Source of the DNA: Phycisphaerae bacterium
GTDB taxonomy: Bacteria > Planctomycetota > Phycisphaerae > UBA1845 > JANYLN01
NCBI GenBank assembly: GCA_041687575.1
Contig: JAWLBS010000002.1
Span: forward strand, 1 to 55,737
Direction of reading: 5' to 3'
DNA: 55,737 bases
The notes below the pieces were generated by a model that saw only the letters and a program-made list of their open reading frames with translations, had not been told where the DNA came from and made no database searches. Positions within the stretch are counted from its first letter, which is position 1, and each line of letters opens with the position of its first letter. Both the position numbers and the translations under genes were made by a program. Below, in pieces: positions 12,600-29,641 of this stretch.

Positions 12600-12682
12600 T
12601 CAGCGTCGACCGGTTCGTGCCGCGGTACAAGGTCCGACGGGACCGTTGTGTCGGCTTCCACCAAGACGAATTGCCGCTTCGC

Positions 12683-15474: not shown

Positions 15475-15881
15475 ATAGTGCCTCACCTCCTTGGCAACAG
15501 AACCTGCACGTGACGGCTTCCATTGCGACAATCTTAGGCCAATCGCATCCCGCAGGGCGGTTGAGTTCATTGCCTTGCTAAGGCTTGCGCTTCTGCATCA
15601 ACATTGGATGTGTCGCGTATTCATGGCAAGAGCATCAACGCTTGGTAAGCGAGCACAGACTGGCCCCGGTAGTCGATTATTTTCAGTTCGTAATCTGCAG
15701 ACACGCCCTGGATCAGAAATCGCTTGCCGCAGAAGCCCCCGCAGATGGCTTTCTCCAAATGAATCTATTCAAGCCAGGACCCGGGCCAGATCGGCCACCG
15801 GCAGGGCCGTGATCCGCAGACTTTTCCTATCTTCATGCATGTTGGTCATAAATCGTACGTATCTGCCAGGATTAGCGTTAC

Positions 15882-16208
15882 GTGGCCTTGAGGTTCCTCG
15901 CAACACATGGCTCACATGGGGTCATGGCAACCAACCACAAGCGAGGGACACAGATGAACGCGAACCAGATGACCTTTGGCGTAGAGATCGAAACCGGCCA
16001 GGCCGCCTCCAACAGCGACCTGGCCCGCCGGCTGAAGATGGACCAGTCCTACATTGCCCGCACGATCCGCCTGACCTCCCTCGCCCCGGCCATCATCGAA
16101 GCCATCCTCGCTGGCCACGAACCCGATGGATTCTCTCTGCTGGCTCTCCGACGCAACCTGCCGCTGCTGTGGGACGAACAGCGGCAAACTCTCACGGGCA
16201 ATGATTAG
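15882..16208 (+). pseudogene. Probable remnant of a recombinase/ParB-like C-terminal HTH tail
   Basis: The segment SDLARRLKMDQSYIARTIRLTSLAPAIIEAILAGHEPDGFSLLALRRNLPLLWDEQRQ resembles the HTH-plus-LAPDIVEAILDG tail I recall from a subset of serine-recombinase-family proteins. No catalytic domain precedes it. It sits in a lower-GC patch. Confidence 0.3.
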
Positions 16209-16244
16209 CAAAAGCAACTCGCTCTGGCTTCTTGCTTCCGAGCC

Positions 16245-16544
16245 CTACGGCGTATCCGTTCGACCTGTCTCAACTGGCAGCCGCGCCAGGACGAGCCCTT
16301 CGAAATCGACGATGGCACGGCTGGGATCGCCGATGCTGCGGATGGCGAAGCCCTGCTCGCTGCGTTCACTGTGGATCAGGACGGCGCTGCCGAAGCGCAG
16401 CCCCTTCGCCACCTTCTCCCAAAGCAGATCCCGCACGCGGGCCGAGACCCGACCCACGAACACGCCCGCCTTCGGCTGGATCAGCCACCGCGTCAGCTCA
16501 CCCCGCAGTGACGGAGTCACCCTCTCCAGGATCAGAATTGTCAT
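16245..16544 (-). CDS. cas2: CRISPR-associated endoribonuclease Cas2, type I-E
   Basis: MTILILERVTPSLRGELTRWLIQPKAGVFVGRVSARVRDLLWEKV matches the Cas2e pattern (…ENVPPRLRG.L..WLLE.RAGVYVG..S..VRE..W…). At 99 aa the length is right for the family. Confidence 0.85.
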   Translation of the reverse strand: MTILILERVTPSLRGELTRWLIQPKAGVFVGRVSARVRDLLWEKVAKGLRFGSAVLIHSERSEQGFAIRSIGDPSRAIVDFEGLVLARLPVETGRTDTP

Positions 16545-17010
16545 CGCTGTCCCTCTCCCTGCTGCTCAGGCTCGATAGATCGTCCATCTTGAGGATCTGC
16601 CCGATCGGCAGCTCCGCCGCAATCGTCGCCGGCTGCCACCAGTCGGCGGGCATGGCCCCGCCCGCGGCGAACTCGTCCGGCGCCTGCTGCTCGGCTGCCT
16701 CGACTTTCAGGACCTTCCGGATATCCGGCAGGACCCGCTCGACCAGCCGCTCTGCAGAGAACCGGTCGCGACAGGCCAGCCTCACTTTCCGCTCGATGCC
16801 GCCGACCTCCGCCGCCGCGATCGAGAACGCCAGCAGCACCGTCATCTCCATCTTGTACAGGTCCGCCACGTCGTACACGAACGACAACTGCTTGCCCGTG
16901 TGGATGAACCCCAGGGCCGGGGAGTATCCGCCCGACAGGATCGCCGCGTGCACCAGGCCGTACAGGCAAGAGTTTGCCGCCGACAGCGCCCGGTTCACCG
17001 GGTCGGCCAT
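16498..17010 (-). pseudogene. cas1: 5'-truncated cas1, type I-E (C-terminal ~170 aa only)
   Basis: NRALSAANSCLYGLVHAAILSGGYSPALGFIHTGKQLSFVYDVADLYK … VRLACRDRF matches the C-terminal half of Cas1e, including the catalytic His/Asp region. The upstream ~135-170 aa are absent because the tadG-like stop codon lies only 45 nt away. Weak homology may extend ~20 nt upstream of the listed Met. Confidence 0.85.
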
Positions 17011-17054
17011 GTCCCAGGCGTTTGCAGGGACGTCCTGACGCAGTGATGTACCGC

Positions 17055-18425
17055 TTACTCCACCAGGTACGACACGTGGGCCAGGACGTCGTCCCGGCCG
17101 CGGTAGGGGATCGTGATGTCGCCCGTGCCGTTGATGTCGAGAGTGTTGACGATGATCTGGTTGCCCATGTTGAAACTCGTGCCGCGTGCCCAGAGCTCGG
17201 CCCCGGGCAGATAGAGCGTACCGGTGAGCTTCGTGTCATGCGTGCCGACCATCCGCGCGCCGTTGTGGTTGTCGCGGGCCTGCCAGATGCTGATGCCGCG
17301 ATAGGTGTCGGCCGCGGGGAAGTAGCGGCCGGCGTCTTCGGCGGGCAGCGTCGGCGGAGACAGTTCGATATTGCCGTTGCCTCCGAGGTCGATGCGTCCG
17401 CTGCCGACGATATGCAGCATCACGCCGTTGGCGATGAGGTTCCCGCCGGTCATGCTCAGCCCTTCGCCGTCGAGGATATAGATCCCGGGGGTGAGCGTCA
17501 GGGTGCCGCCCTGCATGCGGATGCCGCCGGAGAAGTAGTGATAGCCGTCGCTGGTCCCGCTCGTCGGGGAGATCGTGACGGATGCCTGGTCGTTCAGCCA
17601 CAGGGAACCCTCGTCCTGGAGCCCCTGGCTGAGCAGTGCGTCGAGGTCGGGTTCGGGCACGTCGCCGAGCGGATCGGCCACGGGCGCGTCGATCGGGTGG
17701 AGGCGCGACGGGTCAAAGTCAACGGCCCCTCGGATCACGTTGCCGCCGACGAGGTCGACCTGCGGCGTGCGGATCTTGGGTCTGCCCCTGGCGTGGAAGG
17801 CACTGCCCGCACTCGAGTTGACCACGCCGCCGCCATGGATGCTTTCGAAGGTGGTCGTCCCGCTGAATTTCACCGCCTCCGGGGCGTCGCTATCCAGTAC
17901 GCTCCAGGCGTAGCCGGGGGTAAAGCGTTTGACAGCCAGGGCGGTCCGCTGGACGTCGACGCTGGTTACGCCGAACATCGGGCCGAAGAACAGCGGCAGC
18001 GCGCCGTTGGGCGAGCCGGACGTGAGGCGTGCGGTTGCGCGAACGGCATTCGGATACTCCGCGTTCGGCAGAAAGATCCTGCTTGCGGTGTCGTATCGCC
18101 CGACGATGACATCGCCGCCGTCGAGGTCGAAGCTGACCGCCGTGCCGTGCGCATAGTTCAGCGAACCAATGCTGCTCGCCGCCGTGCGGGCCTGCTGGCC
18201 CGTCTCGTCGAGCAGGACCTCGTGCGCCCCGGCCAGGGCGGCGGCGTCGGCGGCGTTCTGCAGCTGATGGCGGACCAGCATCGTGTAGCCGACGTCGATG
18301 GCCAGGCCGGTGACCCCGACCAGCACGACCATGAGCACCGCGACCCAGACCAGCACAACCCCCCGTCGCTTTGTCAGATGTGAGGATCTCCCGCCACGCG
18401 TTCGAATACTCGTGCGCTTTGTCAT
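17055..18425 (-). CDS. tadG: TadG-like Flp pilus assembly protein (TadE/G-like N-terminus)
   Basis: The N-terminus RRGVVLVWVAVLMVVLVGVTGLAIDVGYTMLVRHQLQNAADAAALAGA is the typical TadG pseudopilin-like anchor. Divergent from flp. Confidence 0.75.
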   Translation of the reverse strand: MTKRTSIRTRGGRSSHLTKRRGVVLVWVAVLMVVLVGVTGLAIDVGYTMLVRHQLQNAADAAALAGAHEVLLDETGQQARTAASSIGSLNYAHGTAVSFDLDGGDVIVGRYDTASRIFLPNAEYPNAVRATARLTSGSPNGALPLFFGPMFGVTSVDVQRTALAVKRFTPGYAWSVLDSDAPEAVKFSGTTTFESIHGGGVVNSSAGSAFHARGRPKIRTPQVDLVGGNVIRGAVDFDPSRLHPIDAPVADPLGDVPEPDLDALLSQGLQDEGSLWLNDQASVTISPTSGTSDGYHYFSGGIRMQGGTLTLTPGIYILDGEGLSMTGGNLIANGVMLHIVGSGRIDLGGNGNIELSPPTLPAEDAGRYFPAADTYRGISIWQARDNHNGARMVGTHDTKLTGTLYLPGAELWARGTSFNMGNQIIVNTLDINGTGDITIPYRGRDDVLAHVSYLVE

Positions 18426-18848
18426 CTGATTGCCCCTTGTACCCTGTTCCCGCTGGGCCCCGCATATGGCTTGCCTCCGGCCGACTCGCCCGGAAGCGGC
18501 GTGTCGTACAGTATTATTTTATCCTGTAAATGCGCGGTGGCTACCCGGCTCGGCCAGGACGTTCGGCGGCGGCATGTCGCCCCGGCTGGACAGGCTGGAT
18601 CTCAGTCCTCCCGCAAAAAGTTCGGGGCAACTTGCCTTTGGCGAAAACCAGCCTATCTTTAATCTAGTTGCACTTCCTTATGGGTTTTGACTGGGTCGAG
18701 CAGGCGCAAGCGCCTGGTGGACCAGGGGCAGGGAAGCAAGTCAGTCCGAGTCACCATGCGTGTTCGTTGATTCTGTGATGATTGTACAGGTCGGAGTTGT
18801 TTCGTTAGGCCATGCGCCAACATCGGCGCTAACAAGGAGGAGCGCGCT

Positions 18849-19016
18849 ATGACGCTGCTGAAGAGGTTCTGGAAGGAAGAGGCGGGGTTGGAGACTGTGG
18901 AGTGGGCGATCCTGGCGGCGGTTATCAGCGGTGGAGTGATTGTAGCCGCTGGAGTGATCGGGGGATTCGTTCAGGATCGCTTTACCACCCTCCAGGCGGA
19001 CATTGAGGCCTCTTGA
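18849..19016 (+). CDS. flp: Flp family type IVb pilin (55 aa; below the ORF-track size cutoff)
   Basis: My translation is MTLLKRFWKEEAGLETVEWAILAAVISGGVIVAAGVIGGFVQDRFTTLQADIEAS. It contains the Flp motif (G/ETVEWAIL followed by a hydrophobic stretch). AAGGAGGAG RBS at 18834-18842. It lies immediately upstream of the prepilin peptidase. Confidence 0.75.
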   Translation: MTLLKRFWKEEAGLETVEWAILAAVISGGVIVAAGVIGGFVQDRFTTLQADIEAS

Positions 19017-19048
19017 CGCCTAATTAGTCTGAACTTGTCGGGTGTGCC

Positions 19049-19615
19049 ATGCTGAGCATTGGATTCAGCAACCAAATCATGCTGCTGCCGTGGGGTGTCG
19101 TGATCGGCGCCTCACTGGCAGCGGCCGTTTGGGACTTGCGGTCCCGCCGGATCCCGAATCGCCTGACGGTGCCCGTATGGGTAGCCGGGCTGGCGTGGGG
19201 GCTTTGGACGGACGGACTGGCGGGCGCGGGCGACAGCCTGGCGGGTTGCCTGCTGATGGGCCTGCCGTTCGTGCTGCTGTTCGCCCTGGCCGGAGGCGGG
19301 GCGGGTGACGCCAAGCTGATGATGGCGCTGGGAACGTGGCTTGGCCTTCATGATGGAACACTGGCCATCGTAATGGTCTGCATGGCGGGAGCGGTGATGG
19401 GGCTGGCCTGGGCCGTCGTGCGTGGCCGCGCCCACATGGTAGCGGCGAATCTCGGGCGGATCGGCTGGTCGGTCTGGTTCTGGCGGATGGGGCATGGTGA
19501 CGCCCTTGAGGCGGGTCGGCCGGTGTCGCCGACGGATGCAACGGCGTTTCCGTACGGCACTGCCATTTTGGCCGGCGTGGTGCTGGCGACGGCGTGGAGG
19601 GTTGCGTGGCCATAG
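19049..19615 (+). CDS. cpaA: Prepilin peptidase CpaA/TadV (A24 family)
   Basis: RRIPNRLTVP and GGGAGDAKLMMALGTWLG aspartyl-protease motifs, with multiple TM segments. Confidence 0.85.
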   Translation: MLSIGFSNQIMLLPWGVVIGASLAAAVWDLRSRRIPNRLTVPVWVAGLAWGLWTDGLAGAGDSLAGCLLMGLPFVLLFALAGGGAGDAKLMMALGTWLGLHDGTLAIVMVCMAGAVMGLAWAVVRGRAHMVAANLGRIGWSVWFWRMGHGDALEAGRPVSPTDATAFPYGTAILAGVVLATAWRVAWP

Positions 19616-20013
19616 CCATCGGACACAGAAAAAGATATCGCCGCGGGCTGGCGCTGGTGGAGATGGCGCTGGTGCTGCCGCTGCTGCTGATGCTCACGCT
19701 GGGGGCGATCGAGTACGGGTGGATGATGCTCCGCGCGCAGGAGCTGACCAACATCGTGCGACATGCAGCGCGGCTGGCGTCGCTGCCGGATGCGACCAAC
19801 GCAAGCATCGAAGCGGAGGTTCAAAGCCGTGCGTCAGGCACGGGGCTCGGCACGCCGTCGATCACGATCTCGCAGAACGTGGCCTCGCTGCCGCCGGGAG
19901 AGCCTTTTACCGTCGAGGTGCGCGTTCCCTATACGTCGCTGACGCAGTTTGGATTGTTGCCGGTGCCGGAGCGGCTGCGGAGCGAGATGACCATGGCGAA
20001 AGAAGGGGCGTAG
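19594..20013 (+). CDS. tadE: TadE-like pseudopilin
   Basis: RGLALVEMALVLPLLLMLTLGAIEYGWMM is the TadE N-terminal signature. Starts at a GTG. Confidence 0.75.
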   Translation: MEGCVAIAIGHRKRYRRGLALVEMALVLPLLLMLTLGAIEYGWMMLRAQELTNIVRHAARLASLPDATNASIEAEVQSRASGTGLGTPSITISQNVASLPPGEPFTVEVRVPYTSLTQFGLLPVPERLRSEMTMAKEGA

Positions 20014-20221
20014 GGGCTGGCTGGCGGCGTGGTGCCGCTGGCGTGCGAGGGCAACGGCAGACAGGTGCAAGCGGGTACAGGTCGCACGGCCCTGCTGCGG
20101 AGCAGGACCGCGGGACCCGGACTCGGGAGCATCAGGGCCGGGGTCCAGGGAATCGAGGGCGTGGGTTGTGAATCGTGCGGGGGGCATCGCCGGTCGGCGA
20201 CTGCTTTGAGAGGAGACTGTC

Positions 20222-21205
20222 ATGAGGTTTTCCGTTGTCATCCTGCTGGTGCTCGGCGTCGCGGCGGCGGGCGCGGCGGCGATGCTGCTGGCGGCGTCAC
20301 GGGCGAAGGCGGCGCCGCAGACGAGCGCAGGCGCCGACGTGCAGATCGTCGTCGCCGCCAGGCCGCTGGATGCCTTCACTGTCGTCCGGTCGGACTGCGT
20401 GACGACGCGCACCCTGCCGGCGGCCGACGCGCCGCAGGGCTGCCTGAGCGATACGGCGCACGTGATCGGCAAGGCGCTGCGGGTGCCGATGGCGGAAGGG
20501 GAGCTGTTCACGCGGGACTGCTTCGCCACGGACAATTCGCCGCAGAGCGTCGCTTCGAAGCTGCTGCCGCCGGGCAAGCGGGCCAAGGCGGTAGCCCTGT
20601 CCGACGACGCCGCGATGCACGGATTGCTCTACCCGGGCTGCATGGTGGACGTGCTGTGGGTCTTCAACAGCCGGGTCGCCAGCAACAATCCAACCTCACG
20701 GACGCTCCTGGAGAACGTGCCGGTGCTGGCGGTCGGGCGGGAGACGGCCCTGTCTTCGGAGAATGCCCTGGAAGATGCGCTGTCCCCCAGCAGTCGCTCT
20801 CGCAACCGAAGCCTAGTCACGCTCCTGGTGGACAGCCAGCAGGCCGAAGCGCTGCAGCTGGCGATGGACCAGGGATCGATTTCGCTGGCGTTGCGCAACC
20901 CGACGGACGCACTGACCGTAGCGCCACCGCCGATGTCCCTGAGTCGCCTGACGGGCGAGTCCTTCTCGCTGGACGCGGCCGCGGAGGCGATGAAATCGCT
21001 GCTGGCGGCCGTCGGTCAGATGGGCAAGGGCTTCGGTGGCACACAGGGCGGAGTGGCTCCAGCGCCAGCGCCGGCTCCGCAGCTCAAGGAATGGGAGACC
21101 ACCATCATTCGCGGCGGCCAGAAGACCGAGACCGCGAAATTCGTCATTCCTGCCGCCGAGGCGCCGTTAAGCCCGGTGGCAAGATCAGTGAGTCCACCGT
21201 TGTAA
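20222..21205 (+). CDS. cpaB: Flp pilus assembly protein CpaB/RcpC
   Basis: N-terminal TM anchor followed by a SAF-like segment (VVAARPLDAFTVVRSDCV). Its position before the secretin fits CpaB. Confidence 0.8.
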   Translation: MRFSVVILLVLGVAAAGAAAMLLAASRAKAAPQTSAGADVQIVVAARPLDAFTVVRSDCVTTRTLPAADAPQGCLSDTAHVIGKALRVPMAEGELFTRDCFATDNSPQSVASKLLPPGKRAKAVALSDDAAMHGLLYPGCMVDVLWVFNSRVASNNPTSRTLLENVPVLAVGRETALSSENALEDALSPSSRSRNRSLVTLLVDSQQAEALQLAMDQGSISLALRNPTDALTVAPPPMSLSRLTGESFSLDAAAEAMKSLLAAVGQMGKGFGGTQGGVAPAPAPAPQLKEWETTIIRGGQKTETAKFVIPAAEAPLSPVARSVSPPL

Positions 21206-21277
21206 GCGTCGCCGCAAAGTTCCGGTAGCGTGCGGGGCTACAGTGGCCTCGCCTCGCCATCGACAACAGGAGTAACC

Positions 21278-22840
21278 ATGAATACCATGCGACGGACGGC
21301 GGGCTGGTTCATGTACCTGGGCGCAGCCGTGTTAAGCACCGCAGTACCCGGGGCCATGGGTCAGCAGGAACCAGTTTCGATACAACACGCGGCCACCGAA
21401 ACGATCGCCGTGACGCTGGGGCAGAGCCGGCGTGTCGAGGCCTCGTGGCCCGTCAAGCGGGTGGCGGTGACGAACCCCCAGATCGCGGACGTGCAGGTGC
21501 TCACGCCCCGGCAGGTGCTGATCCAGGCACGAGCGCCGGGCTCGACCGACGTGCTGCTCTGGAGCGAGCAGGAGCAGGTCCGACAGATCCGCGTGAACGT
21601 CGACATCGACGCCGAGCGGATCCGCCAGGACCTGCAAACCATGTTCCCCGACGGCCGCATCGACATCCGCCAGACGGGCGAGGTCGTGGCAGTGACCGGG
21701 CAGGTCGCACGGGCCTCGCAGGTCGAGCAACTGCACACGTTCCTCGACGCGCTGGGGGTCAAGTACGTGGATATGACCACGCTGGCGGGCGTCCAGCAGG
21801 TGATGCTGCAAGTCCGCATCGCCGAGGTCAGCCGCACGGCGATCCGCACGCTCGGCTTCAACGCCTTCGGCACGGGCGACGACTTTTTCGGCGGGATCTC
21901 GGTCGGGCCGTTCGGTGGCACGCCGATCAACCCGGTCTCGATAGGGCCGCCCGCGGGAGCCCTGGCCGGAAGAGACGTGCCCTTCACGTTCAACGCGGAC
22001 GTGAACATCAGCCCGGCTGTCACACTGTTCGGCGGGTTTCCCGACGCCGTATTTGAGTTCTTCCTGCAGGCGCTGGCGGAGAACCAGTACCTGCGGATTC
22101 TGGCCGAGCCGAATCTCGTCGCCCTCAGCGGCGAGGACGCCCACTTCCTGGTCGGCGGCGAGTTCCCCATCCCGGTGGTGCAGGGCGGTATCCTGGGCGC
22201 GGCGTCGGTGACGATCGAATACCGCGAGTTCGGCGTGCGGCTGCGGTTCCGGCCGGTGGTGACGGGAGACGGGTCGATCCGGCTGAAGGTTGCACCGGAG
22301 GTGAGCGAACTGTCCGATGCCGGGGCGGTCGAGATCCAGGGCTTCCGCGTGCCGAGCCTGGTGACTCGCCGGGCCGAAACGACGCTGGAGCTCAAGGACG
22401 GGCAGACCTTCGCAATGGCGGGTCTGCTTCAGCGGCGGAGCCTGGCGCGGGCGTCGCGGGTCCCCGGGGCCGGCGATATCCCGATCCTGGGCGTGCTGTT
22501 CCGCTCGGTCCGCTATACCGAAGGCGAGACTGAATTGGTGGTCCTGGTACGGGCGTCGCTGGTCGAACCCATGAACCTGGCGAGCATGCCGCCGGCGCCC
22601 GGCATGTCGCACGTCGTGCCGAACGACTGGGAGCTGTACGGCCTGGGGCAGCTCGAGGGGGAGGCTTCGCGAACCGCGGCCGCCCAGCAGGTCGAGTGGG
22701 TCCGCGACTTGGGGCTCGACCGGCTCAAAGGGCCGGGGGCCTGGCAGGGCTACCAGGTGTTGCCTGAGATCGACACCTCGGGCGTATCGCCGCTGATGAG
22801 GACTCCGGCTGCGCCCTCAATCGACGACACGTTGGAGTAA
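21278..22840 (+). CDS. cpaC: Tad secretin CpaC/RcpA
   Basis: Signal peptide, BON-like N region, and secretin core (GGEFPIPV … TLELKDGQTFAMAGLL … GDIPILGVLFRS … ELVVLVRASLVEP). Start set at the ATG at 21278 after AGGAG. Confidence 0.85.
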   Translation: MNTMRRTAGWFMYLGAAVLSTAVPGAMGQQEPVSIQHAATETIAVTLGQSRRVEASWPVKRVAVTNPQIADVQVLTPRQVLIQARAPGSTDVLLWSEQEQVRQIRVNVDIDAERIRQDLQTMFPDGRIDIRQTGEVVAVTGQVARASQVEQLHTFLDALGVKYVDMTTLAGVQQVMLQVRIAEVSRTAIRTLGFNAFGTGDDFFGGISVGPFGGTPINPVSIGPPAGALAGRDVPFTFNADVNISPAVTLFGGFPDAVFEFFLQALAENQYLRILAEPNLVALSGEDAHFLVGGEFPIPVVQGGILGAASVTIEYREFGVRLRFRPVVTGDGSIRLKVAPEVSELSDAGAVEIQGFRVPSLVTRRAETTLELKDGQTFAMAGLLQRRSLARASRVPGAGDIPILGVLFRSVRYTEGETELVVLVRASLVEPMNLASMPPAPGMSHVVPNDWELYGLGQLEGEASRTAAAQQVEWVRDLGLDRLKGPGAWQGYQVLPEIDTSGVSPLMRTPAAPSIDDTLE

Positions 22841-22849
22841 GGGGGGGGG
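22841..22849. repeat. G9 homopolymer between the cpaC stop and the cpaE start
   Basis: Read directly: gagTAAGGGGGGGGGtgctATG. The run occupies the RBS position of cpaE. Confidence 0.9.
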
Positions 22850-22853
22850 TGCT

Positions 22854-24011
22854 ATGGTGGCTGGAAATGGCGACGTGCTGGTCATGACAGCCGAGCCGGA
22901 CGTAAAGGCCGTCGTCAAAGCCGCCCTTGGCGGCGATGAGCGGTGGGGACAACCGCAGGCCTGCCGCAGCCTGATCGGACTGACCGATCATCTGGAACGG
23001 TACGGAGCTGCCGTGGCGATCGTGGACGTCGATCCGGACCCGCCGCGCCTGCTGGGCGATCTGGATCCGATCGTCGTGCGGTTTTCCGAGACGCGGTTCG
23101 TGCTGATCGCGGACCGGCCAACAAGCGAAGTGGTCGTCGATGCGATGAGGATCGGCGCCCGGCACGTGCTTGACAAGGCGCTGCTGCCCACACAGCTGGT
23201 ACCCGTGCTGAACCGTCTGGTGCCGGCCAGCCGAGCCGATGCCGCGGGTACCGGTGCAGTGGTGACGGTGCTGTCGGCCAGCGGCGGCTGCGGGGCGACG
23301 ACCATCGCGATCAATGCGGCCGGCGAACTGTGCGAGCAGCAGGGCGATTCCTCCCTGCTGGTCGACCTCGACGTCGCCAGCGGCGGGGTCGCCCTGGCGC
23401 TGGGGCTGCGGGGACGGTGCGGCATTGCCGACGTGCTCGCGCACGCGAGCGGGCCGGACCCGGATCTGGTTCGTTCCAGTGCCGTCAGTGCCGGCGCGTT
23501 GAGCGTGCTGCTGAGCCCGGCGAGCGTCAATTTCGCCTGGCCGCGGCCGCTGGTCTGGGAGAACCTTTCGGCGGCGATGACCGCGTGCCGTCGGGCCTTC
23601 GCATGCACGGTGGTCGATGCGCCGCGGGTGCCCTTGCCGGTGGCGGCGACGCTGGCGGCGGCCAGCCGGGTCACGCTGATCGTGATGCAGCTGAGCGTGA
23701 AGGACCTGCAGATCGCCCGCGGGCTGCGGCAGGGGCTTTACGAGCACGGTGTGGCTCCCGAGCGGGTAATCACACTGGTCAACCGCTATCGTCGCCGCTA
23801 CAGCGAGATTGGCCTGGACCAGGCCCAGCGGGCACTGCAGGGCAACCATATCGAACTGGTCGGCAACGACTACAGAGCCGTAAGCCGCAGCATCAACTTC
23901 GGCCGGCCCCTGGCCGAGGTTGCGCCGCGCAGCAGCGTCCGCAAAGACCTGCGCAAGCTGCTGGGGCGGCTGGCGCCACAGCTGGCGCAAGGAGGTGTGA
24001 ATCATGGCTGA
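22854..24011 (+). CDS. cpaE: CpaE/TadZ-like pilus localisation protein (receiver-like N-domain + ParA/MinD-like domain with a degenerate Walker A)
   Basis: VVTVLSASGGCGATTIAINAA is an atypical P-loop without the Lys. Its position between the secretin and the ATPase fits CpaE/TadZ. Confidence 0.75.
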   Translation: MVAGNGDVLVMTAEPDVKAVVKAALGGDERWGQPQACRSLIGLTDHLERYGAAVAIVDVDPDPPRLLGDLDPIVVRFSETRFVLIADRPTSEVVVDAMRIGARHVLDKALLPTQLVPVLNRLVPASRADAAGTGAVVTVLSASGGCGATTIAINAAGELCEQQGDSSLLVDLDVASGGVALALGLRGRCGIADVLAHASGPDPDLVRSSAVSAGALSVLLSPASVNFAWPRPLVWENLSAAMTACRRAFACTVVDAPRVPLPVAATLAAASRVTLIVMQLSVKDLQIARGLRQGLYEHGVAPERVITLVNRYRRRYSEIGLDQAQRALQGNHIELVGNDYRAVSRSINFGRPLAEVAPRSSVRKDLRKLLGRLAPQLAQGGVNHG

Positions 24012-25356
24012 CGACAAAGGCGGGAGCGTACAGATACAGGTGCCCGGCGGCGGCAGCCGCAATCCGCAGGACCTCAAGGCCCATGTCCATCGCCGGCTCC
24101 TGGAGACGCTGGATCTGAGCGAGGCCCAGCGGATCCCGTTCGACCAGCTCCGTCGCGAGTGCAGTCTCCGGGTGGACATGCTCCTGAACGAGCAGCAGTG
24201 GCCGCTGTCGGCCCAGGAGCGGCGCGAGGTCGTGCAGGACGTGCTCGACGAGGTCTTCGGGCTCGGGCCGGTCGAGGAGTTTCTCCGCGACCCGCACATC
24301 AGCGACATCCTGGTCAACGGCCCGCGCCATGTCTACATCGAGCGGCAGGGCTGCCTGGAGGAGACCGACGCCACCTTTCGCGATTACGGCCACCTCATGC
24401 AGGTGATCCAGCGGATCGGCAGCCGGGTCGGCCGGCGCATCGACGAGAGCATGCCGATGCTCGACGCGCGCCTGGCCGACGGCAGCCGCGTCAACGCGAT
24501 CATTCCGCCGCTGGCGCTGGACGGCCCGGCGATGAGCATCCGCCGTTTCGGGACGATCGCCATGACGAGCGAGCAGCTGACCGAACTCGAATCGATCATG
24601 CCGGAGATGGCGACGTTCCTGGAGGCGTGCGTCCGCTGCCGGATGAACCTGCTGATCTCCGGCGGGACCGGTTCGGGCAAGACGACGCTGCTGAACGTCT
24701 TGTCGCACTGGATCCCCGCCCACGAACGCGTATTGACGATCGAGGACGCCGCCGAGCTGCAGCTGCAGCGAAAGCACGTGGTCCGGCTGGAGACCCGTCC
24801 GCCCAATATCGAGGGCCGCGGCGAAGTCACCCAGCGCGACCTGCTGCGCAACAGCCTGCGAATGCGCCCGGACCGCATCATCATCGGCGAGGTCCGCGGC
24901 GCCGAGGCCCTGGACATGCTCCAGGCGATGAATACCGGCCACGAGGGCTCGATGACGACCGTCCACGCCAACAACGCCCGTGACGCGCTTCGTCGCACCG
25001 AGAACATGGTCTCGATGGCCGGGCTGAACTACCCTGTTCACGCGATCCGGCAGCAGATGGCCAGCGCGCTGAACATCCTGGTGCACCTGTCGCGGATGAC
25101 CGGCGGGCGCCGCCGCATCGTCGACGTCGCGGAAATCACCGGCATGGAGGGCGACGTCGTCTGCCTGCACGACCTGTTCAAGTTCGTTCAGACGGGCGTG
25201 GGCGAGGATGGTCACGCCAAAGGCCATTTCGAAGTATGCGGCGTGCGGCCGCGTGTGCTGGAGCGGCTCGAGGCCGAGGGCATCGAGTTGCCGACCGACT
25301 TCTTCCAGCGCCGGCAGGTGCCGCTGAAGTCCACGAGGAGGACCGGCCATGCCTGA
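24004..25356 (+). CDS. cpaF: Tad secretion ATPase CpaF/TadA
   Basis: Walker A LISGGTGSGKTTLLN, Walker B/Asp box RIIIGEVRG, and His box MNTGHEGSMTTVHAN. Confidence 0.9.
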   Translation: MADDKGGSVQIQVPGGGSRNPQDLKAHVHRRLLETLDLSEAQRIPFDQLRRECSLRVDMLLNEQQWPLSAQERREVVQDVLDEVFGLGPVEEFLRDPHISDILVNGPRHVYIERQGCLEETDATFRDYGHLMQVIQRIGSRVGRRIDESMPMLDARLADGSRVNAIIPPLALDGPAMSIRRFGTIAMTSEQLTELESIMPEMATFLEACVRCRMNLLISGGTGSGKTTLLNVLSHWIPAHERVLTIEDAAELQLQRKHVVRLETRPPNIEGRGEVTQRDLLRNSLRMRPDRIIIGEVRGAEALDMLQAMNTGHEGSMTTVHANNARDALRRTENMVSMAGLNYPVHAIRQQMASALNILVHLSRMTGGRRRIVDVAEITGMEGDVVCLHDLFKFVQTGVGEDGHAKGHFEVCGVRPRVLERLEAEGIELPTDFFQRRQVPLKSTRRTGHA

Positions 25357-26344
25357 GCAGTTGCGGTCGCTGCAGGCTCTGCACGATCTGGATCTGATCG
25401 CCGCTATCGCCGTGTTCGTGCTCGTGCTGGCGATCTGGATCATGGCGGTCACGCTGTGGCACATGGGCGTGGCGTCGCGCGAGCGAAGGATCGACGCCCG
25501 CCTGATGATGCTCGAACCGGAGGAGGAGCAGCGCGTGCTGCGGCTCTGGCGGGACGGGCGCGACGAGGTCACGCACGTGCCGGGCGGCTCGCGGCTATCG
25601 CCGCTGCAGGTCGTCGACCGGTGGCGGCGGGAGGCGGGCTGGGAGATGCCGCTGAGCAGCCTGGTGCTGGCCGAGGTCGGCGCGACGGTGCTGCTGTTCG
25701 TGTTCGCCCTGACATGGACCGGTTTCCTGCTGGCGGCGGTGGCTTCGGCCGCCGCAGTGCCGCTGGTGACCTGGATCTGCATGAAGCGAGCTGCAGCCGG
25801 GCGGACGATGATCTTCGAGACGCAGTTTCTCGATGCGCTGCAGCTCGCGGCGCGGTCGCTGCGAGCGGGTCATCCGCTGCTCGGATCGCTCCAGCTGGTT
25901 TCCGAAGAGATGCCCGCGCCGGTCGGCGCGCTGTTCGGACGAATCTGCCAGCAGCAGGCGCTGGGCCTGGACCTGCCGGGCGCCCTGCGCGATGCGGCCG
26001 ATGACTCCGGCAGCGACGAGATGAAGCTCTTCGCCACGTCGGTCTCCATTCAGATCCGCACCGGCGGCAACCTTGCGGACCTGATGGACCGGCTGGCGGA
26101 GGTGATCACCGAACGGATGCGGCTGGCGCGGCGCGTCCGCGTGCTGACCGCGCAAACGCAGCTGAGCAAGCGGGTGCTGCTGGTCCTGCCCGTTTTGACG
26201 TTTGCGGGGCTGAGCCTGCTGAACCCCGATTACATGGAACCGCTCTACCGGACGAGCCTCGGGCACAAGATGCTGCTGGCCGGCGGGGCGGCGATGCTGC
26301 TGGGGACGGTGGTGATGAACCGAATGGCGATCATCCGGTACTGA
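25349..26344 (+). CDS. tadB: TadB (T2SS-F-like inner-membrane platform protein)
   Basis: T2SSF-type domain (LDALQLAARSLRAGHPL … ) with TM segments. Overlaps the cpaF end. Confidence 0.8.
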   Translation: MPEQLRSLQALHDLDLIAAIAVFVLVLAIWIMAVTLWHMGVASRERRIDARLMMLEPEEEQRVLRLWRDGRDEVTHVPGGSRLSPLQVVDRWRREAGWEMPLSSLVLAEVGATVLLFVFALTWTGFLLAAVASAAAVPLVTWICMKRAAAGRTMIFETQFLDALQLAARSLRAGHPLLGSLQLVSEEMPAPVGALFGRICQQQALGLDLPGALRDAADDSGSDEMKLFATSVSIQIRTGGNLADLMDRLAEVITERMRLARRVRVLTAQTQLSKRVLLVLPVLTFAGLSLLNPDYMEPLYRTSLGHKMLLAGGAAMLLGTVVMNRMAIIRY

Positions 26345-26368
26345 TCGCCGGGTGTACGAGGTGCAATC

Positions 26369-27268
26369 ATGACGGAGATTCTGGTCCCGGTGCTGGTTTT
26401 CGTCGGCACGGTCGCAGTCGGGGGAGCGGTGGTCGCGGCCCGGGCGGCCCGGACCGAACCGCTTCACGCCCGGCTTCGCGGTCTGGAGATGGAGCCGACG
26501 GCCGCGCCGCCGAGGCGGTCGCGGCTGGCCGAGGCATTGGGGTGGATCGGCCGCTTCGTTGCCTCTGGCGGGACGAGCCGCCCGCTCGGCGAGGAGTTGA
26601 ACCGGGCGGGTTTCCACGGCGAGGCGGCACCGGTGGTGTACCTGGGAGCCAAGGTGCTTCTTGCGGCGGTGGGTCTGCTGGGCTTTGTCGCGATCGCAAT
26701 GCCCATGGAGATCGCCCCCGCGTTGAAGACGTCCGGGGCGATGCTCGCGGCAGGTGCGCTGTTCTTCGTGCCCAACGTGTTCGTGCGGGTCCGCCGCCAT
26801 CAGCGTAGCGCGGAGGTCCGGCGGGCGCTGCCGGACGCGGTGGATCTGCTGGAGGTATGTGTCAGCGCCGGCATGGGGCTCGACATGGCCTGGAACGTGG
26901 TGTCCGACGAGATCCGGCGCGTCAGCCCGGTGCTGGGCGATGAGATGGCCCTGACGAACCTGGAGATCCACCTGGGCGCGCCGCGCGTCGAGGCGATGCG
27001 CCACCTGGCCGAGCGCACAGGCGTCAGTGAGATCGGTTCGCTCGTGGCGGTGCTCGTGCAATCCGAGCGGTTCGGCACGAACGTCGCCGATGCACTGGGG
27101 GCGTTCACCGGCTCGATGCGCGAAACCCGCGGGTCGATTGCGGCGGAAGCGGCTGAGAAGATGGCCGTCCGCCTGATCTTCCCAATGGTTCTGTTCGTGT
27201 TCCCGGCGATCTTTGTTGTCACGGTCGGTCCGGCGGCAATCACACTGATCGATGTCTTCAGGAGATGA
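26369..27268 (+). CDS. tadC: TadC (T2SS-F-like inner-membrane platform protein)
   Basis: LPDAVDLLEVCVSAGMGLDMAW … T2SSF pattern. A paralog of the upstream gene. Confidence 0.8.
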   Translation: MTEILVPVLVFVGTVAVGGAVVAARAARTEPLHARLRGLEMEPTAAPPRRSRLAEALGWIGRFVASGGTSRPLGEELNRAGFHGEAAPVVYLGAKVLLAAVGLLGFVAIAMPMEIAPALKTSGAMLAAGALFFVPNVFVRVRRHQRSAEVRRALPDAVDLLEVCVSAGMGLDMAWNVVSDEIRRVSPVLGDEMALTNLEIHLGAPRVEAMRHLAERTGVSEIGSLVAVLVQSERFGTNVADALGAFTGSMRETRGSIAAEAAEKMAVRLIFPMVLFVFPAIFVVTVGPAAITLIDVFRR

Positions 27269-27271
27269 CCC

Positions 27272-27802
27272 ATGCAGACGGCAGGACGAGGCAGCAGACT
27301 CGTGGCGGTTGCGGTCGTGACGCTGGCCGCGGCGGCGGGCTGCGACAACGGCAAGGAGCGCGTGGCCCGGCCGCAGTACGATCCGCAGACGGTGGACCCG
27401 TGGCTGGTGGAGGTGTCGTCGGACCTGGCCGTCCAAAACGCGGTGATCCGTCAGCACACACTCTATCCCTATCATTTCGTGGAATATGGGGCCGTGCTGA
27501 ACGAACTGGGCGAACGGAATCTCGCGATCCTCATCGAGCACTACCGCCGGCATCCGGGCCCGGTCAATGTGCGCCGGGGAGACGCCTCCGACTCGCTCTA
27601 CGCCGACCGGGTCGCCACGGTCCGTCAGGCGCTGCAGGACGCGGGCGTGGACGTGGAACAGGTGGCAGTTGCCGACCGGTTGCCCGGCGGCGACGGCCTG
27701 CCCGGCGAGCAGGTGATCCGGGTGTCCCGGGCACCTCAGGGGGCCGGCGCGGTGCCCCCGCTGGCCCCGCTGGGCTTGAGCATCGAGGGCCTGCAGCAAT
27801 GA
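27272..27802 (+). CDS. Tad-locus lipoprotein of unknown family (CpaD-position)
   Basis: Lipobox VTLAAAAGC. Sits 3 nt after tadC, and its stop overlaps the next start (ATGA). No family recognised. Confidence 0.55.
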   Translation: MQTAGRGSRLVAVAVVTLAAAAGCDNGKERVARPQYDPQTVDPWLVEVSSDLAVQNAVIRQHTLYPYHFVEYGAVLNELGERNLAILIEHYRRHPGPVNVRRGDASDSLYADRVATVRQALQDAGVDVEQVAVADRLPGGDGLPGEQVIRVSRAPQGAGAVPPLAPLGLSIEGLQQ

Positions 27803-28584
27803 GGCCTCGGACGCTGACATTGTGGCTGCCGGCGCTGGCGGCTGTGGGGCTCGTGCTGACTGTCGGATGCGGTCGGCAAGCCGCCCACCCCGCAGGGCAG
27901 AAGATCCAAACCGCATCCCTGGACGATTCGGACTGGCAGATGGGCCTGGATCGCCAGCCGACGGCCACGACCTGCTACGCGATGGCGCGGGTGATGGCGG
28001 CGCAAGGCAGGGACGCCCCCGCGGCGACGCTCTTGCAGCGGGTGCTGCAGATGGAGCCGGCCTACATGCCCGCCAGGGTCGCACTGGCGCAGGTGTACCT
28101 GCGGCAGCGTCAGCCCGAGCATGCAATGACGACGTTGACCGAGGGGCTGGCGCTGGCGCCTGACGACACGGTCCTGATCAACGACGTGGGAATGGTGCAT
28201 CTGTGGTGCGGGCGGCTGGCTGAGGCGCTCGAATCGTTCAGCCGGGCGGCCTCCCTGGCCCCGACGCAGGCCCGCTACCGCGCCAACCAGGCGATGGTTT
28301 TGGGAATGCTGGGGCGGTACGAAGAGTCGTTCGACGCATACTGCCGCGTGCTGTCTCCAGCTGACGCGCATCACAATCTGGCTGTCCTCTGTGAGGCCCG
28401 AAACGATCCCGAGCGGGCGAAACTCGAACGGCGGATGGCCTTGGCCGTGCAAAAGAGCGGGCAGCCCGGGCAGCGGGGGCGGTTCCTGGCCTCGTCGAGC
28501 CAACCGGCCGAAACTGCGTGCGATACGCGCCCAGCCGAACCGGCGAGCGCCACGCAGCCGGGGGCGGAGACATCTTCGCAGTGA
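27799..28584 (+). CDS. tadD: TPR-repeat lipoprotein, TadD-like
   Basis: Lipobox LVLTVGC, then 4-5 TPR-like repeats (ATLLQRVLQMEPAYMPARVALAQVYL…, EALESFSRAASLAPTQARY…). The true start lies inside the listed ORF 27265..28584. Confidence 0.7.
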   Translation: MRPRTLTLWLPALAAVGLVLTVGCGRQAAHPAGQKIQTASLDDSDWQMGLDRQPTATTCYAMARVMAAQGRDAPAATLLQRVLQMEPAYMPARVALAQVYLRQRQPEHAMTTLTEGLALAPDDTVLINDVGMVHLWCGRLAEALESFSRAASLAPTQARYRANQAMVLGMLGRYEESFDAYCRVLSPADAHHNLAVLCEARNDPERAKLERRMALAVQKSGQPGQRGRFLASSSQPAETACDTRPAEPASATQPGAETSSQ

Positions 28585-28618
28585 GGGCGGCCGAGCCGTG
28601 TTGTTCAGTCGGTCCGGC

Positions 28619-28785
28619 TTGCCCTCGCCCATCGGGGCTTCGATGATCGCCAGCCCGGGCTCTACCTCCACATCGGCGGCCTGCTCTGTCGCGGCCTGGA
28701 TAGGCCGGGGTTGGTAGCCGGACCAGATCTCGGTGAAGGCCGTACGATCCGCAAAGGTCAGTGGCGCCAGTCGCGTCATCAACAC
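28619..28785 (-). pseudogene. cas3: cas3 (type I-E) fragment covering ~56 aa up to helicase motif I
   Basis: FADRTAFTEIWSGYQPRPIQAATEQAADVEVEPGLAIIEAPMGEGK parallels the E. coli Cas3 segment I recall as GYQPRQLQ…APGLTVIEAPTGSGKTE. Homology stops right after GK, 35 nt from the tadD stop. Confidence 0.6.
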
Positions 28786-28939
28786 AGTGTGCCCACAGGG
28801 GGTGGGCGGGTTCGACTTCGCTCACGTCGCAGCAGCCTGACTGCCCAAGCCGACACGATTCATTCGCGTTCCTCGGAGATGAGAGTCGTAGTGTACGACC
28901 AATCTGCAGACTTTGCCGAACAGCTCGATCATCCCTGCG

Positions 28940-29484
28940 TCAGCGAGGCCCGCTGACGCAGTTCGACGGCGAGAGCGTCCGGTTGTGACCGTCGCCCGTC
29001 TCCCGTGCGATGGCGGCGGGAAGCTCATCAGCCAGGGCCGCCCCGACCGAAGCCAGAGGGATTTCGCGTCGCAGCAACTCGACCTGGCGGGCCCCGTCGA
29101 CAGTCCGCACGTCCAACCGGACCTTGGGGGCGGCACCATCGGATGGGCCAAGGACTTCAGAACTGCCCTCGACGAGGAAGGGCACCGTACGGTCGACAGC
29201 GTCGGAACCTGTCAGTTCCAGTTCCCGGCGGATGGCACGGGCCTCTTCCATCTCAATGACAGCGGTACCGGCAAGCGGGGACAATGCGTTGCCGGCAAGC
29301 CACATGAACGCCCCTGGTACCGGTCGTATTCATGCGTGAAGTTCCGGCAGGCGAACGGCGAGATGCCCGACTGCTGCAGCACGGGCGACGACAGCACCGC
29401 CCAACGGTTGTACGGCTTGGCGGCTGGACCACCTGCAAGCGAGCGGCCGTGTGCCGCCATCGGCATCAGCCCAGCCAGTATCAC
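28940..29484 (-). pseudogene. Decayed fourth copy of the giant-paralog N-terminal module (internal deletion + frameshift + truncation)
   Basis: One frame gives KPYNRWAVLSSPVLQQSGISP|FACRNFTHEYDRYQG. After a 1-nt shift near 29305, the next frame gives LSPLAGTAVIEMEEARAIRRELE … VPFLVEGSSEV. Compare copy A: YTRWAILSSPELQESG … VCRNFTHDYDRYQAGF … PGVAVIETEQARSIRRENE … LPLFVEGEYEI. Confidence 0.6.
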
Positions 29485-29641
29485 GCAGCAGACGGTCCGG
29501 TGGTCGAAAGCATCGGGCACTCCTTGTGCGGCTGCAAAACGGTTGCGGCAACCACCAGGCCGCGTCACGCTTCGGCAGATCGCTCCGCCAGCGAACGTGC
29601 GGGACCTCGACCGGCGGTTGCCGCGCGACTTGCCGCTGCCG

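What the first reader, a model, noticed from the sequence alone, without database searches (positions are those of the whole stretch)
16245..28785. A complete Tad/Flp pilus locus sits where the core of a type I-E CRISPR-Cas locus should be
On the minus strand there is a 56-aa cas3 piece ending at helicase motif I (28619-28785). About 11.6 kb further along are the C-terminal half of cas1e (16498-17010) and an intact cas2e (16245-16544). The canonical I-E order is cas3-cse1-cse2-cas7-cas5-cas6e-cas1-cas2. Here everything from cas3 motif I to mid-cas1 is missing. The gap is filled by tadG(-), flp, cpaA, tadE, cpaB, cpaC, cpaE, cpaF, tadB, tadC, a lipoprotein gene and a tadD-like gene (17055-28584). 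The ends of this block lie within about 35-45 bp of the cas fragment ends. This looks like a one-step replacement of the interference module by a pilus island, or insertion followed by deletion. I saw no integrase gene and no obvious terminal repeats.
Basis: partly seen in the sequence, partly recalled or inferred. Interest (0 to 1): 0.7.

Follow-up and report, generated by a model that had tools for sequence, protein, structure and literature searches.

The report
Decayed CRISPR locus split by pilus genes
A planctomycete (class Phycisphaerae) from sediment carries the last scraps of a type I-E CRISPR-Cas immune locus on either side of its complete, class-typical Tad pilus gene cluster; it is a clear example of an immune locus decaying in several steps, not a new kind of mobile pilus island.

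Summary
cas2e is intact (16245-16544, minus strand). The 3' half of cas1e is present (16498-17016). A 51-residue Cas3 piece ends exactly at helicase motif I (28618-28770). A complete 12-gene Tad/Flp cluster (17055-28584) lies between them, and both junctions are 40 bp or shorter.

The "one-step replacement by a pilus island" reading is not supported, for four reasons:
- The Cas3 piece is internal. Its HD nuclease domain is also gone, and about 190 bp further on lies a frameshifted stump of a different gene. In relatives that gene is the giant gene that follows the CsgG-like gene.
- The leader and CRISPR array are gone, and no Cascade gene remnant survives anywhere in the window.
- So there are four novel junctions, which need at least three events.
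- The Tad cluster has the same gene order and boundaries as in other Phycisphaerae. Its composition matches the rest of the contig. It has no integrase, tRNA or terminal repeats.

Best reading: multi-step decay and rearrangement of a I-E (or I-E-derived) locus around a Tad cluster that looks native. A close precedent exists in Cutibacterium acnes type I strains, which keep exactly cas2 plus the 3' end of cas1. Interest is modest.

The parts
28618..28770 (-). Internal remnant of cas3 (51 codons: the linker before RecA1 plus helicase motif I, ...LAIIEAPMGEGK). The HD domain and everything after motif I are absent.
   Evidence: Cas3 hits at motif I only; coding-phase GC signature of this frame; no HD-domain similarity upstream
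28585..28617 (.). Junction J2: from the stop of the TPR lipoprotein gene to the end of Cas3 homology (33 nt).
   Evidence: no repeat or terminator
27799..28584 (+). TPR lipoprotein (TadD-like), the last gene of the Tad cluster. It has a lipobox (LTVGC), and its C-terminal tail is about 26 aa longer than in the L027 homologue.
   Evidence: TPR families; frame; same position in L022 and L027
27272..27802 (+). 176-aa protein with no family hit. A 173-178-aa gene occupies the same position in Phycisphaerae Tad loci.
26369..27268 (+). tadC (T2SSF platform protein)
25349..26344 (+). tadB (T2SSF platform protein)
24004..25356 (+). cpaF/tadA secretion ATPase (T2SSE)
   Evidence: E 4e-63
22854..24011 (+). 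cpaE/tadZ-like ParA/MinD-family protein
   Evidence: weak CbiA/ParA hits, below the Pfam cut-offs; conserved position in relatives, with AAA_31/CBP_BcsQ hits
21230..22840 (+). cpaC/rcpA secretin
20222..21205 (+). cpaB/rcpC
19594..20013 (+). tadE-like pseudopilin
19049..19615 (+). cpaA/tadV prepilin peptidase (A24)
18849..19016 (+). flp pilin
   Evidence: PF04964 E 1.8e-5, below the gathering score; same position in relatives
17055..18425 (-). tadG-like gene, divergent from flp. It is full length, with the native C-terminus SYLVE.
17017..17054 (.). Junction J3: from the tadG stop to the start of Cas1 homology (38 nt).
   Evidence: Unitigs from an independent sediment sample (X1) overlap across 17012-17031 and run on into tadG. 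No terminator-like site.
16498..17016 (-). 3' half of cas1e (equivalent to residues 170-342 of the L001 Cas1). The N-terminal domain, and with it the first catalytic acidic residue, is missing. The frame is open throughout.
16245..16544 (-). Intact cas2e
   Evidence: 70% identity to the L001 Cas2
16209..16244 (.). Junction J4: only 36 nt separate the cas2 stop from the stop of a convergent gene. Leader and CRISPR array are absent. In related loci the array starts roughly 100-500 nt after cas2.
15954..16208 (+). 84-aa HTH protein, convergent with cas2. It matches the C-terminal half of a phage 'recombinase' family.
   Evidence: phrog_14161, positions 69-138 of 143, E 2e-20; weak ParB-type HTH; coordinates
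28771..28963 (.). Junction zone J1: unassigned 193 nt between the giant-gene stump and the Cas3 piece.
   Evidence: no family hit in either long open frame of the minus strand
28964..29424 (-). Frameshifted stump of a 'giant' gene, covering roughly residues 24-430 of proteins that run from about 1000 to 2180 aa. In relatives this gene follows the CsgG-like gene directly.
   Evidence: tblastn: L028 giant residues 200-275, E 1.5e-11; window paralogues match in two frames; 113 long proteins match the 121-aa ORF, most at about residues 190-330; operon structure in relatives
29642..33184 (-). Intact upstream part of that operon: ECF sigma factor, anti-sigma factor, a 343-aa protein and a CsgG-like protein.

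Best explanation
This is a dead type I-E (or I-E-derived) CRISPR-Cas locus in a Phycisphaerae genome. It has been reduced, by several independent breakage, deletion or rearrangement events, to three collinear scraps: a 51-codon internal piece of cas3, the 3' half of cas1e, and cas2e. The organism's complete Tad/Flp pilus cluster now lies between the cas3 scrap and cas1'. That cluster has the architecture typical of the class and a composition that matches the rest of the contig.

Shown:
- The identity of the scraps.
- The absence of the Cas3 HD domain, the rest of the helicase, all Cascade genes, the Cas1 N-terminal half, the leader and the array.
- The completeness of the Tad cluster.
- Four novel junctions: giant-gene stump | cas3 piece | Tad | cas1'-cas2 | HTH gene.

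Inferred:
- The Tad block, from this genome or a close relative, was joined into the cas operon by illegitimate recombination or rearrangement.
- Non-functional DNA on all sides was then trimmed back to the borders of functional genes by ordinary deletion bias. This would explain why every junction is tight.
- At least three events are needed.

Function today: the Tad cluster presumably builds Flp pili for adhesion. The cas scraps cannot give immunity. cas1'-cas2 lie directly downstream of tadG on the same strand, with no terminator-like site between them, so they may be transcribed passively.
For: - Scraps identified.
- No other cas remnants in 55.7 kb.
- No array or repeat. Related loci do have arrays after cas2.
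- Giant-gene stump, and the operon structure in relatives.
- Tad genes.
- Identical Tad architecture in four other Phycisphaerae contigs with different neighbours. A permuted version appears.
- TadG is full length.
- Composition looks native (r = 0.983, GC 0.676).
- No terminal repeats, tRNA or integrase in the block.
- The left junction is seen in unitigs from an independent sample.
- Precedent for the same remnant (cas2 plus the 3' end of cas1, array deleted, two deletions) in C. acnes: PMC3316620.
Against: - cas1' (173 codons) and cas2 (99 codons) have no frameshift or stop, whereas the giant-gene stump is frameshifted. Long neutral decay would be expected to damage them too, so either the cas inactivation is recent or cas2 is still under selection.
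- No close relative was found (best TadG hit 45% identity, best CsgG-like hit 58%). Neither an ancestral intact locus nor an empty site could be shown, so the order of events is inferred.
- The right junction (28585-28617) is not spanned by any independent contig.
- Both ends of the Tad block lie within 40 nt of the terminal stop codons. Deletion trimming explains this only after the fact.
Confidence: 0.65

Rival explanations
1. A horizontally acquired Tad 'pilus island' replaced the interference module, from cas3 motif I to mid-cas1, in a single recombination event.
For: The cas3 piece and cas1'-cas2 are collinear and in canonical order, and both junctions are tight. Tad loci are known to move horizontally, and a mobile Tad element is documented in C. 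acnes (PMC3316620).
Against: A single event does not explain the missing HD domain, the giant-gene stump or the missing leader and array. The block's composition cannot be told apart from the rest of the contig. It has no integrase, att site, tRNA or repeats. Its architecture is the one typical of this class.
Confidence: 0.12
2. The cas3 scrap is older than the Tad event. The ancestral locus was a Cas5-HNH type I-E variant. That family has mostly lost cas3 and sometimes keeps cas3 remnants nearby. On this view the Tad block displaced only cse1 through mid-cas1, next to a cas3 relic that already existed.
For: The closest relative of the surviving Cas1' and Cas2 (L001: 61% and 70% identity) is a Cas5-HNH locus with no cas3 in the 342 nt of contig upstream of cse1. 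L009-L015 are the same variant, with up to 4.4 kb upstream lacking cas3. The literature reports cas3 remnants or truncations near such loci (PMC10910872). This would explain why the piece lacks an HD domain.
Against: Canonical I-E loci that contain cas3 (L006, L007) are nearly as close (54% Cas1 identity, against 55% for the HNH loci L009-L015). No cas3 relic was found upstream of cse1 in the HNH loci fetched. cas5 is gone from the window, so the defining fusion cannot be checked.
Confidence: 0.15
3. Assembly chimera. The contig joins pieces of different genomes or strains, and the junctions do not exist in any cell.
For: The window is a metagenomic contig. It contains several truncated genes and a homopolymer frameshift. 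The right junction is not independently spanned.
Against: Unitigs from an independent sample overlap across the tadG/cas1' junction at 97-99% identity. The junctions share no repeat that could mislead an assembler. Composition is uniform across the junctions. Four chimeric joins that happen to preserve the canonical cas order and strand would be an unlikely accident.
Confidence: 0.05
4. The 'cas3 piece' is a chance P-loop-like similarity. Only cas1'-cas2 are real remnants, and they simply lie beside the Tad locus after an ordinary deletion of the upstream cas genes.
For: Each single hit is weak (E about 1e-3 to 3e-4). Pfam found nothing, and the word-based protein search found nothing.
Against: Three independent libraries all put the same 35-50 residues at the same Cas3 position, ending in the I-E-typical EAPMGEGK. 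It is the only such hit in the window. It lies on the same strand and on the expected side of cas1-cas2, and it retains a coding GC-phase signature.
Confidence: 0.06

Closest known systems
Remnant I-E locus of Cutibacterium (Propionibacterium) acnes type I strains (PMC3316620)
   Same: Type I-E. What survives is cas2 plus the 3' end of cas1. cas3 through the 5' end of cas1 and the CRISPR array were removed by separate deletions. A Tad locus is also part of that story: intact I-E arrays carry spacers against a mobile Tad element that is found in the CRISPR-negative strains.
   Different: There the Tad locus sits on a separate mobile element, not between the cas scraps, and no cas3 piece is reported. 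Intact and empty sites are known from sister strains there, whereas none could be found here.
Cas5-HNH type I-E variant loci with lost or vestigial cas3 (Altae-Tran et al. 2023, PMC10910872)
   Same: The nearest relatives of the surviving Cas1' and Cas2 belong to this variant (L001; also L009-L015). The paper notes cas3 remnants or truncations near some such loci.
   Different: Those loci keep a working Cascade-HNH and an array. Here Cascade, Cas5 and the array are all gone, so membership cannot be tested.
Tad/Flp pilus locus ('widespread colonization island'; the Caulobacter cpa and Aggregatibacter tad systems; from my own knowledge of the literature, and the TFF-superfamily survey PMC6668835 listed)
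   Same: Full gene set: flp, prepilin peptidase, TadE/TadG pseudopilins, CpaB/RcpC, secretin, TadZ/CpaE, TadA/CpaF, TadB, TadC and a TPR lipoprotein.
   Different: Nothing unusual in the locus itself. It is the version typical of Phycisphaerae, with a divergent tadG and an extra gene of about 175 aa before the TPR gene.
Escherichia coli phylogroup B2 strains lacking the I-E cas genes (from my own knowledge; not checked here)
   Same: Lineage-wide loss of the I-E cas operon, leaving short relics at the locus.
   Different: No unrelated operon is nested between the relics.

Membership tests
Functional type I-E CRISPR-Cas locus | Cas3 with an HD nuclease domain and a complete SF2 helicase | tested here: not met
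   Only 51 residues around motif I survive. No HD or later helicase similarity was found.
Functional type I-E CRISPR-Cas locus | Cascade genes cse1, cse2, cas7, cas5 and cas6e | tested here: not met
   tblastn with the five L001 proteins finds nothing below E 0.2 anywhere in the window.
Functional type I-E CRISPR-Cas locus | Full-length Cas1e | tested here: not met
   Only model positions 169-269 of 269 are present, equal to L001 residues 170-342.
Functional type I-E CRISPR-Cas locus | Cas2e | tested here: met
   Full-length match, 75.7 bits against a cut-off of 33.15; PF09707, 106.9 bits.
Functional type I-E CRISPR-Cas locus | CRISPR array of 28-29-nt I-E repeats downstream of cas2 | tested here: not met
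   No repeat family, tandem repeat, I-E repeat pattern or Rfam CRISPR-DR hit. Related loci have arrays.
Tad/Flp pilus locus | Flp pilin and its A24 prepilin peptidase | tested here: met
   PF04964 E 1.8e-5 (below the gathering score, as in relatives) and PF01478 E 4.9e-16.
Tad/Flp pilus locus | TadA/CpaF ATPase and the two platform proteins TadB and TadC | tested here: met
   T2SSE E 4e-63; T2SSF twice.
Tad/Flp pilus locus | Secretin RcpA/CpaC and RcpC/CpaB | tested here: met
   PF00263 plus PF13629; PF16976 plus SAF.
Tad/Flp pilus locus | TadZ/CpaE ParA-like localisation protein | tested here: inconclusive
   The CbiA and ParA hits fall below the Pfam cut-offs. The gene is in the conserved position, and its orthologues in relatives hit AAA_31/CBP_BcsQ.
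Tad/Flp pilus locus | Minor pilins TadE and TadG, and a TPR lipoprotein (TadD-like) | tested here: met
   PF07811, PF13400, PF09977. TPR families plus a lipobox. Orthology to TadD itself was not tested.
Genomic island / integrative mobile element | Integrase, transposase or relaxase inside or at the border of the block | tested here: not met
   All 12 genes of the block are Tad genes or their conserved partner. The only recombinase-like gene is an 84-aa HTH protein about 850 nt outside the block, beyond cas2.
Genomic island / integrative mobile element | Terminal direct or inverted repeats, or insertion next to a tRNA gene | tested here: not met
   One shared 8-mer, which is fewer shared words than chance predicts. 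No long repeats. The only tRNA call lies inside cpaC and has no Rfam support.
Genomic island / integrative mobile element | Composition different from the host | tested here: not met
   Tetranucleotide r = 0.983 against the rest of the contig; GC 0.676 against 0.655-0.668. The outlier is 14400-16244, not the Tad block.
Cas5-HNH type I-E variant | HNH nuclease fused to Cas5 | not testable with these tools
   cas5 is deleted from the window. The fusion is present in the nearest relative, L001 (PF09704 plus PF01844).
Cas5-HNH type I-E variant | cas3 absent or vestigial | tested here: inconclusive
   cas3 is vestigial here, but that is equally expected from general decay of a canonical locus.

The most novel reading that the evidence does not exclude
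The arrangement may record a conflict between CRISPR immunity and a transferable Tad cluster, as seen in C. acnes, where I-E spacers target a mobile Tad element. On this reading an incoming Tad-bearing DNA from a related Phycisphaerae was targeted by the resident I-E system. The lineage that survived was one in which the Tad DNA recombined into the cas operon itself, destroying interference in the act of integrating. A weaker variant of this idea: the still-open cas1'-cas2, transcribed by read-through from tadG, has been kept for a function other than immunity.
Probability: 0.06. Interest if true: 0.6.

Novelty: new member of a known kind. Interest (0 to 1): 0.3.

Why it matters
The window gives a well-resolved picture of how a CRISPR-Cas locus dies in an uncultured planctomycete: scrap by scrap, at four junctions. 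The surviving remnant (the 3' end of cas1 plus cas2) is the same one seen in C. acnes. That raises the question of whether this particular remnant recurs for a reason, such as a breakpoint hotspot or retention of cas2.

It is also a warning for automated CRISPR-Cas calling. An orphan cas1/cas2 hit next to a large operon can be misread as a new association between cas genes and a cargo.

It does not reveal a new mobile element or a new defence mechanism.

Tried and rejected
1. The word-based protein search with the 69-aa Cas3 piece found no candidate; that search was wasted.
2. An exact look-up of the window's Cas2 found no record.
3. HD-domain relics upstream of the Cas3 piece. tblastn with four Cas3 proteins and NCBIfam scans of the two long open minus-strand frames found nothing. 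A tempting 'PLWAHCVDD...' string at 28778-28804, which resembles a Cas3 N-terminus, has no statistical support (E > 30) and was dropped.
4. The + strand ORF 28913-29683 first looked coding from its GC3. This is the shadow of the minus-strand giant-gene stump.
5. Terminal repeats or microhomology at the two inner junctions: none beyond chance.
6. Terminators or promoters at the junctions: none.
7. Synteny with relatives, to find an intact locus or an empty site. The nearest homologues are only 45% (TadG) and 58% (CsgG-like) identical. Their contexts show the ancestral operon forms, but no cas genes next to Tad or next to the CsgG operon.
8. cas3 relics upstream of cse1 in Cas5-HNH loci: none.
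9. Protospacers in the window for 157 spacers from related arrays: only background matches of 17 nt or less.
10. Read support for the right junction: no independent contig spans it.

Full report
**1. What is there**

The window is one whole metagenomic contig of 55,737 bp, GC about 67%. Runs that share its 31-mers are sediment metagenomes. The best protein relatives are named Phycisphaerae or Planctomycetes, so the source is a Phycisphaerae-class planctomycete.

On the minus strand, cas2e (16245-16544) is intact. It matches the Cas2e models over their full length (TIGR01873 E 2.4e-21; PF09707 E 5.9e-31).

The overlapping ORF 16498-17010 matches only positions 169-269 of the 269-position Cas1e model (E 1.5e-40). 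The Cas1 of a Phycisphaerae MAG locus (L001) aligns from its residue 170 to its end with 17016-16501, at 61% identity, E 6e-66, with no frameshift. The His and Asp of the C-terminal catalytic domain are still there (GFIHTG, YDVADLYK; read). The N-terminal domain is absent, and with it the first acidic catalytic residue. That last point rests on established knowledge of Cas1 (E141/H208/D221 in E. coli).

**2. The cas3 piece**

The minus-strand frame at 28618-28770 reads LAPLTFADRTAFTEIWSGYQPRPIQAATEQAADVEVEPGLAIIEAPMGEGK.
- Pfam finds nothing.
- NCBIfam gives Cas3 PRK09694, positions 282-315, E 1.2e-3.
- In the PDB the best of 177,635 sequences is I-E Cas3 4q2c, residues 306-340 (E 9e-4). The T. 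fusca Cas3 entries align at 260-314 and 280-334.
- Four I-E Cas3 proteins taken from metagenomic loci hit the window only here (L006 residues 268-315, E 2.9e-4; pairwise E 3.5e-7 to 0.014).
- The frame keeps a coding-type GC phase over 28580-28820.

I accept it as a genuine relic. It is an internal piece, however. Homology stops right after GEGK, and on the other side there is no HD domain.

**3. The Tad cluster**

All the named genes are confirmed: tadG(-), flp, cpaA, tadE, cpaB, cpaC, cpaE-like, cpaF, tadB and tadC. They are followed by a 176-aa gene and a TPR lipoprotein gene. The TPR gene really starts at 27799, with a lipobox.
- TadG is full length and ends in the family's own C-terminal motif.
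- The TPR protein is homologous to its L027 counterpart up to about residue 233, then carries a tail about 26 aa longer.
- The gaps to cas homology are 38 nt (17017-17054) and 33 nt (28585-28617).

**4.

(a) Downstream of the CsgG-like gene (29642-30715, -), relatives carry a giant gene of 1464-2180 aa in the operon ECF sigma, anti-sigma, ~345-aa protein, CsgG-like, giant. In the window only a stump survives at 28964-29424(-).
- It matches L028 giant residues 200-275 (E 1.5e-11).
- It matches the window's own paralogues in two different frames, so it is frameshifted and internally deleted.
- The 121-aa ORF within it matches 113 long proteins, most of them at about residues 190-330.

The Cas3 piece begins about 190 nt beyond this stump.

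(b) After cas2 there is no leader and no array. Only 36 nt separate the cas2 stop from the stop of a convergent 84-aa HTH gene (15954-16208). That gene matches the C-terminal half of a phage 'recombinase' family (phrog_14161, E 2e-20). Related loci have arrays starting roughly 100-500 nt after cas2. No I-E-like repeat exists anywhere in the window.

(c) No remnant of cse1, cse2, cas7, cas5 or cas6e exists in the window.

There are therefore four novel junctions. One deletion makes one junction; an insertion or an inversion makes two. So at least three events are required.

**5. Is the Tad block a foreign island?**

The evidence says no.
- Its tetranucleotide profile correlates with the rest of the contig at r = 0.983, and its GC is 0.676. 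The compositional outlier is 14400-16244, to the left of cas2 (r = 0.871 against a size-matched null of 0.94 ± 0.02; GC 0.62).
- The same 12-gene architecture, with the same end genes, occurs in other Phycisphaerae contigs next to unrelated neighbours: an acetyltransferase and FtsH in one genome, LigD in another. A permuted form also occurs.
- None of the nearest TadG homologues has cas genes beside it.
- The block contains no integrase. The one tRNA call lies inside cpaC and has no Rfam support. The two junctions share fewer short words than random pairs of segments.

**6. Is it real?**

In a different sediment sample (X1), two unitigs at 97-99% identity overlap across 17012-31. One continues into tadG (to 17161) and the other into cas1' (to 16931). 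This supports the left junction independently. The right junction is not spanned by any independent contig. No repeat is present that could mislead an assembler. I put the chimera reading at about 5%.

**7. Mechanism**

The best-supported reading is multi-step decay. A I-E-type locus lost function. The Tad block, from this genome or a close relative, was joined between cas3 and cas1 by illegitimate recombination or rearrangement. Flanking non-functional DNA was then trimmed back to the borders of functional genes. That DNA comprised most of the giant gene, the cas3 5' end, and the leader and array.

The joining step and the order of events are inferred. No relative close enough to show the ancestral site was found.

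A point that does not fit neatly: cas1' and cas2 are still open (272 codons in all), while the giant-gene stump is frameshifted. So the cas inactivation may be recent, or cas2 may be retained. No terminator-like site separates tadG from cas1'-cas2, so passive co-transcription is possible (inference).

**8. A modifier worth stating**

The closest relative of the surviving adaptation genes, L001, is a Cas5-HNH type I-E variant (Cas5 with PF01844 HNH). It has no cas3 in the 342 nt of contig upstream of cse1. L009-L015 are the same variant, with up to 4.4 kb upstream lacking cas3. Altae-Tran et al. report that most such loci lack cas3 and that some have cas3 remnants nearby (PMC10910872). The HD-less Cas3 scrap could therefore predate the Tad event. 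Canonical loci that contain cas3 are almost equally close (54% Cas1 identity against 55% for those HNH loci), and cas5 is gone from the window, so this cannot be decided here.

**9. Comparison with what is known**

In C. acnes type I strains, the I-E locus was reduced by two deletions to exactly cas2 plus the 3' end of cas1. The intact I-E arrays of type II strains carry spacers against a mobile Tad-locus element that is present in the CRISPR-negative strains (PMC3316620).

The window therefore belongs to a known kind: a decayed I-E locus with the same remnant. What is unusual is that a Tad cluster lies between the scraps. The C. acnes precedent makes a scenario of conflict between CRISPR and Tad conceivable. 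Nothing here tests it. 157 spacers from the related arrays have no protospacer in the window, and those arrays come from distant organisms in any case.

**10. Verdict**

- Observation: confirmed.
- Interpretation: partly supported.
- Novelty: new member of a known kind.
- Interest: 0.3.

Noticed in passing
window 15954-16208 (+): An 84-aa HTH protein, convergent with cas2 (36 nt between the two stop codons). It matches positions 69-138 of 143 of phrog_14161 'recombinase' (E 2e-20) and, weakly, ParB-type HTH models. It lies in the only compositionally deviant stretch of this neighbourhood (14400-16244: GC 0.62, tetranucleotide r = 0.871). It may be a relic of the element or event that removed the leader and array.
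   Followed up: partly
window 15323-15332 (C10 on +, G10 on -), inside the ECF sigma gene 14862-15474 (-): The sigma-factor gene is split by a +1 frameshift in a 10-nt homopolymer; nine bases would restore the frame. This could be a sequencing error, a pseudogene or a phase-variable tract. A G9 run also sits at 22841-22849, between cpaC and cpaE.
   Followed up: partly
window 43194-43949 (+) versus 36655-43197 (+): Right after the 2180-aa giant gene comes a second, truncated copy of its N-terminus: 92% amino-acid identity to residues 26-277, and a DNA repeat 36757-37056 / 43221-43520 at 88% identity, spaced 6464 nt apart. With the 1074-aa paralogue at 33509-36733 and the stump at 28964-29424, the window holds four members of this family, two of them truncated. 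Paralogue-driven rearrangement may be common in this neighbourhood.
   Followed up: partly
L001 3343-4464; L009-L015: The nearest relatives of the window's Cas1' and Cas2 are Cas5-HNH type I-E variant loci (a Cas5 domain plus a C-terminal HNH). No cas3 is present in the upstream sequence available, which is as much as 4.4 kb in L009. L001 comes from a Phycisphaerae MAG.
   Followed up: yes
window 16410-16560 and 16631-16781: A salt-lake metatranscriptome run (X6) holds two 151-nt unitigs that are 95-96% identical to cas1'/cas2, and nothing else from 12000-31900 at comparable identity. So a near-identical cas1-cas2 exists, and is probably transcribed, in another setting, possibly as part of an intact locus.
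   Followed up: partly
window 16680-16931: In sample X1 one unitig departs from the window to the left of 16931. Another joins 16680 to 16814 through 16 unrelated letters, but only 24 nt lie on the shorter side of that joint. This is weak evidence that population variants differ inside the cas1' remnant, which would mean decay is still going on.
   Followed up: no
window 22069-22157 (-): ARAGORN calls an 89-nt tRNA-Leu(GAG) inside the cpaC secretin gene. Rfam finds no tRNA at its gathering threshold. This is most likely a false positive, not an integration site.
   Followed up: yes
L022 11552-14206: In one Phycisphaerae relative an LigD (NHEJ ligase/primase) gene lies directly next to tadG. 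This shows that at least that relative in the class encodes an end-joining enzyme of the kind that could make junctions without homology.
   Followed up: no
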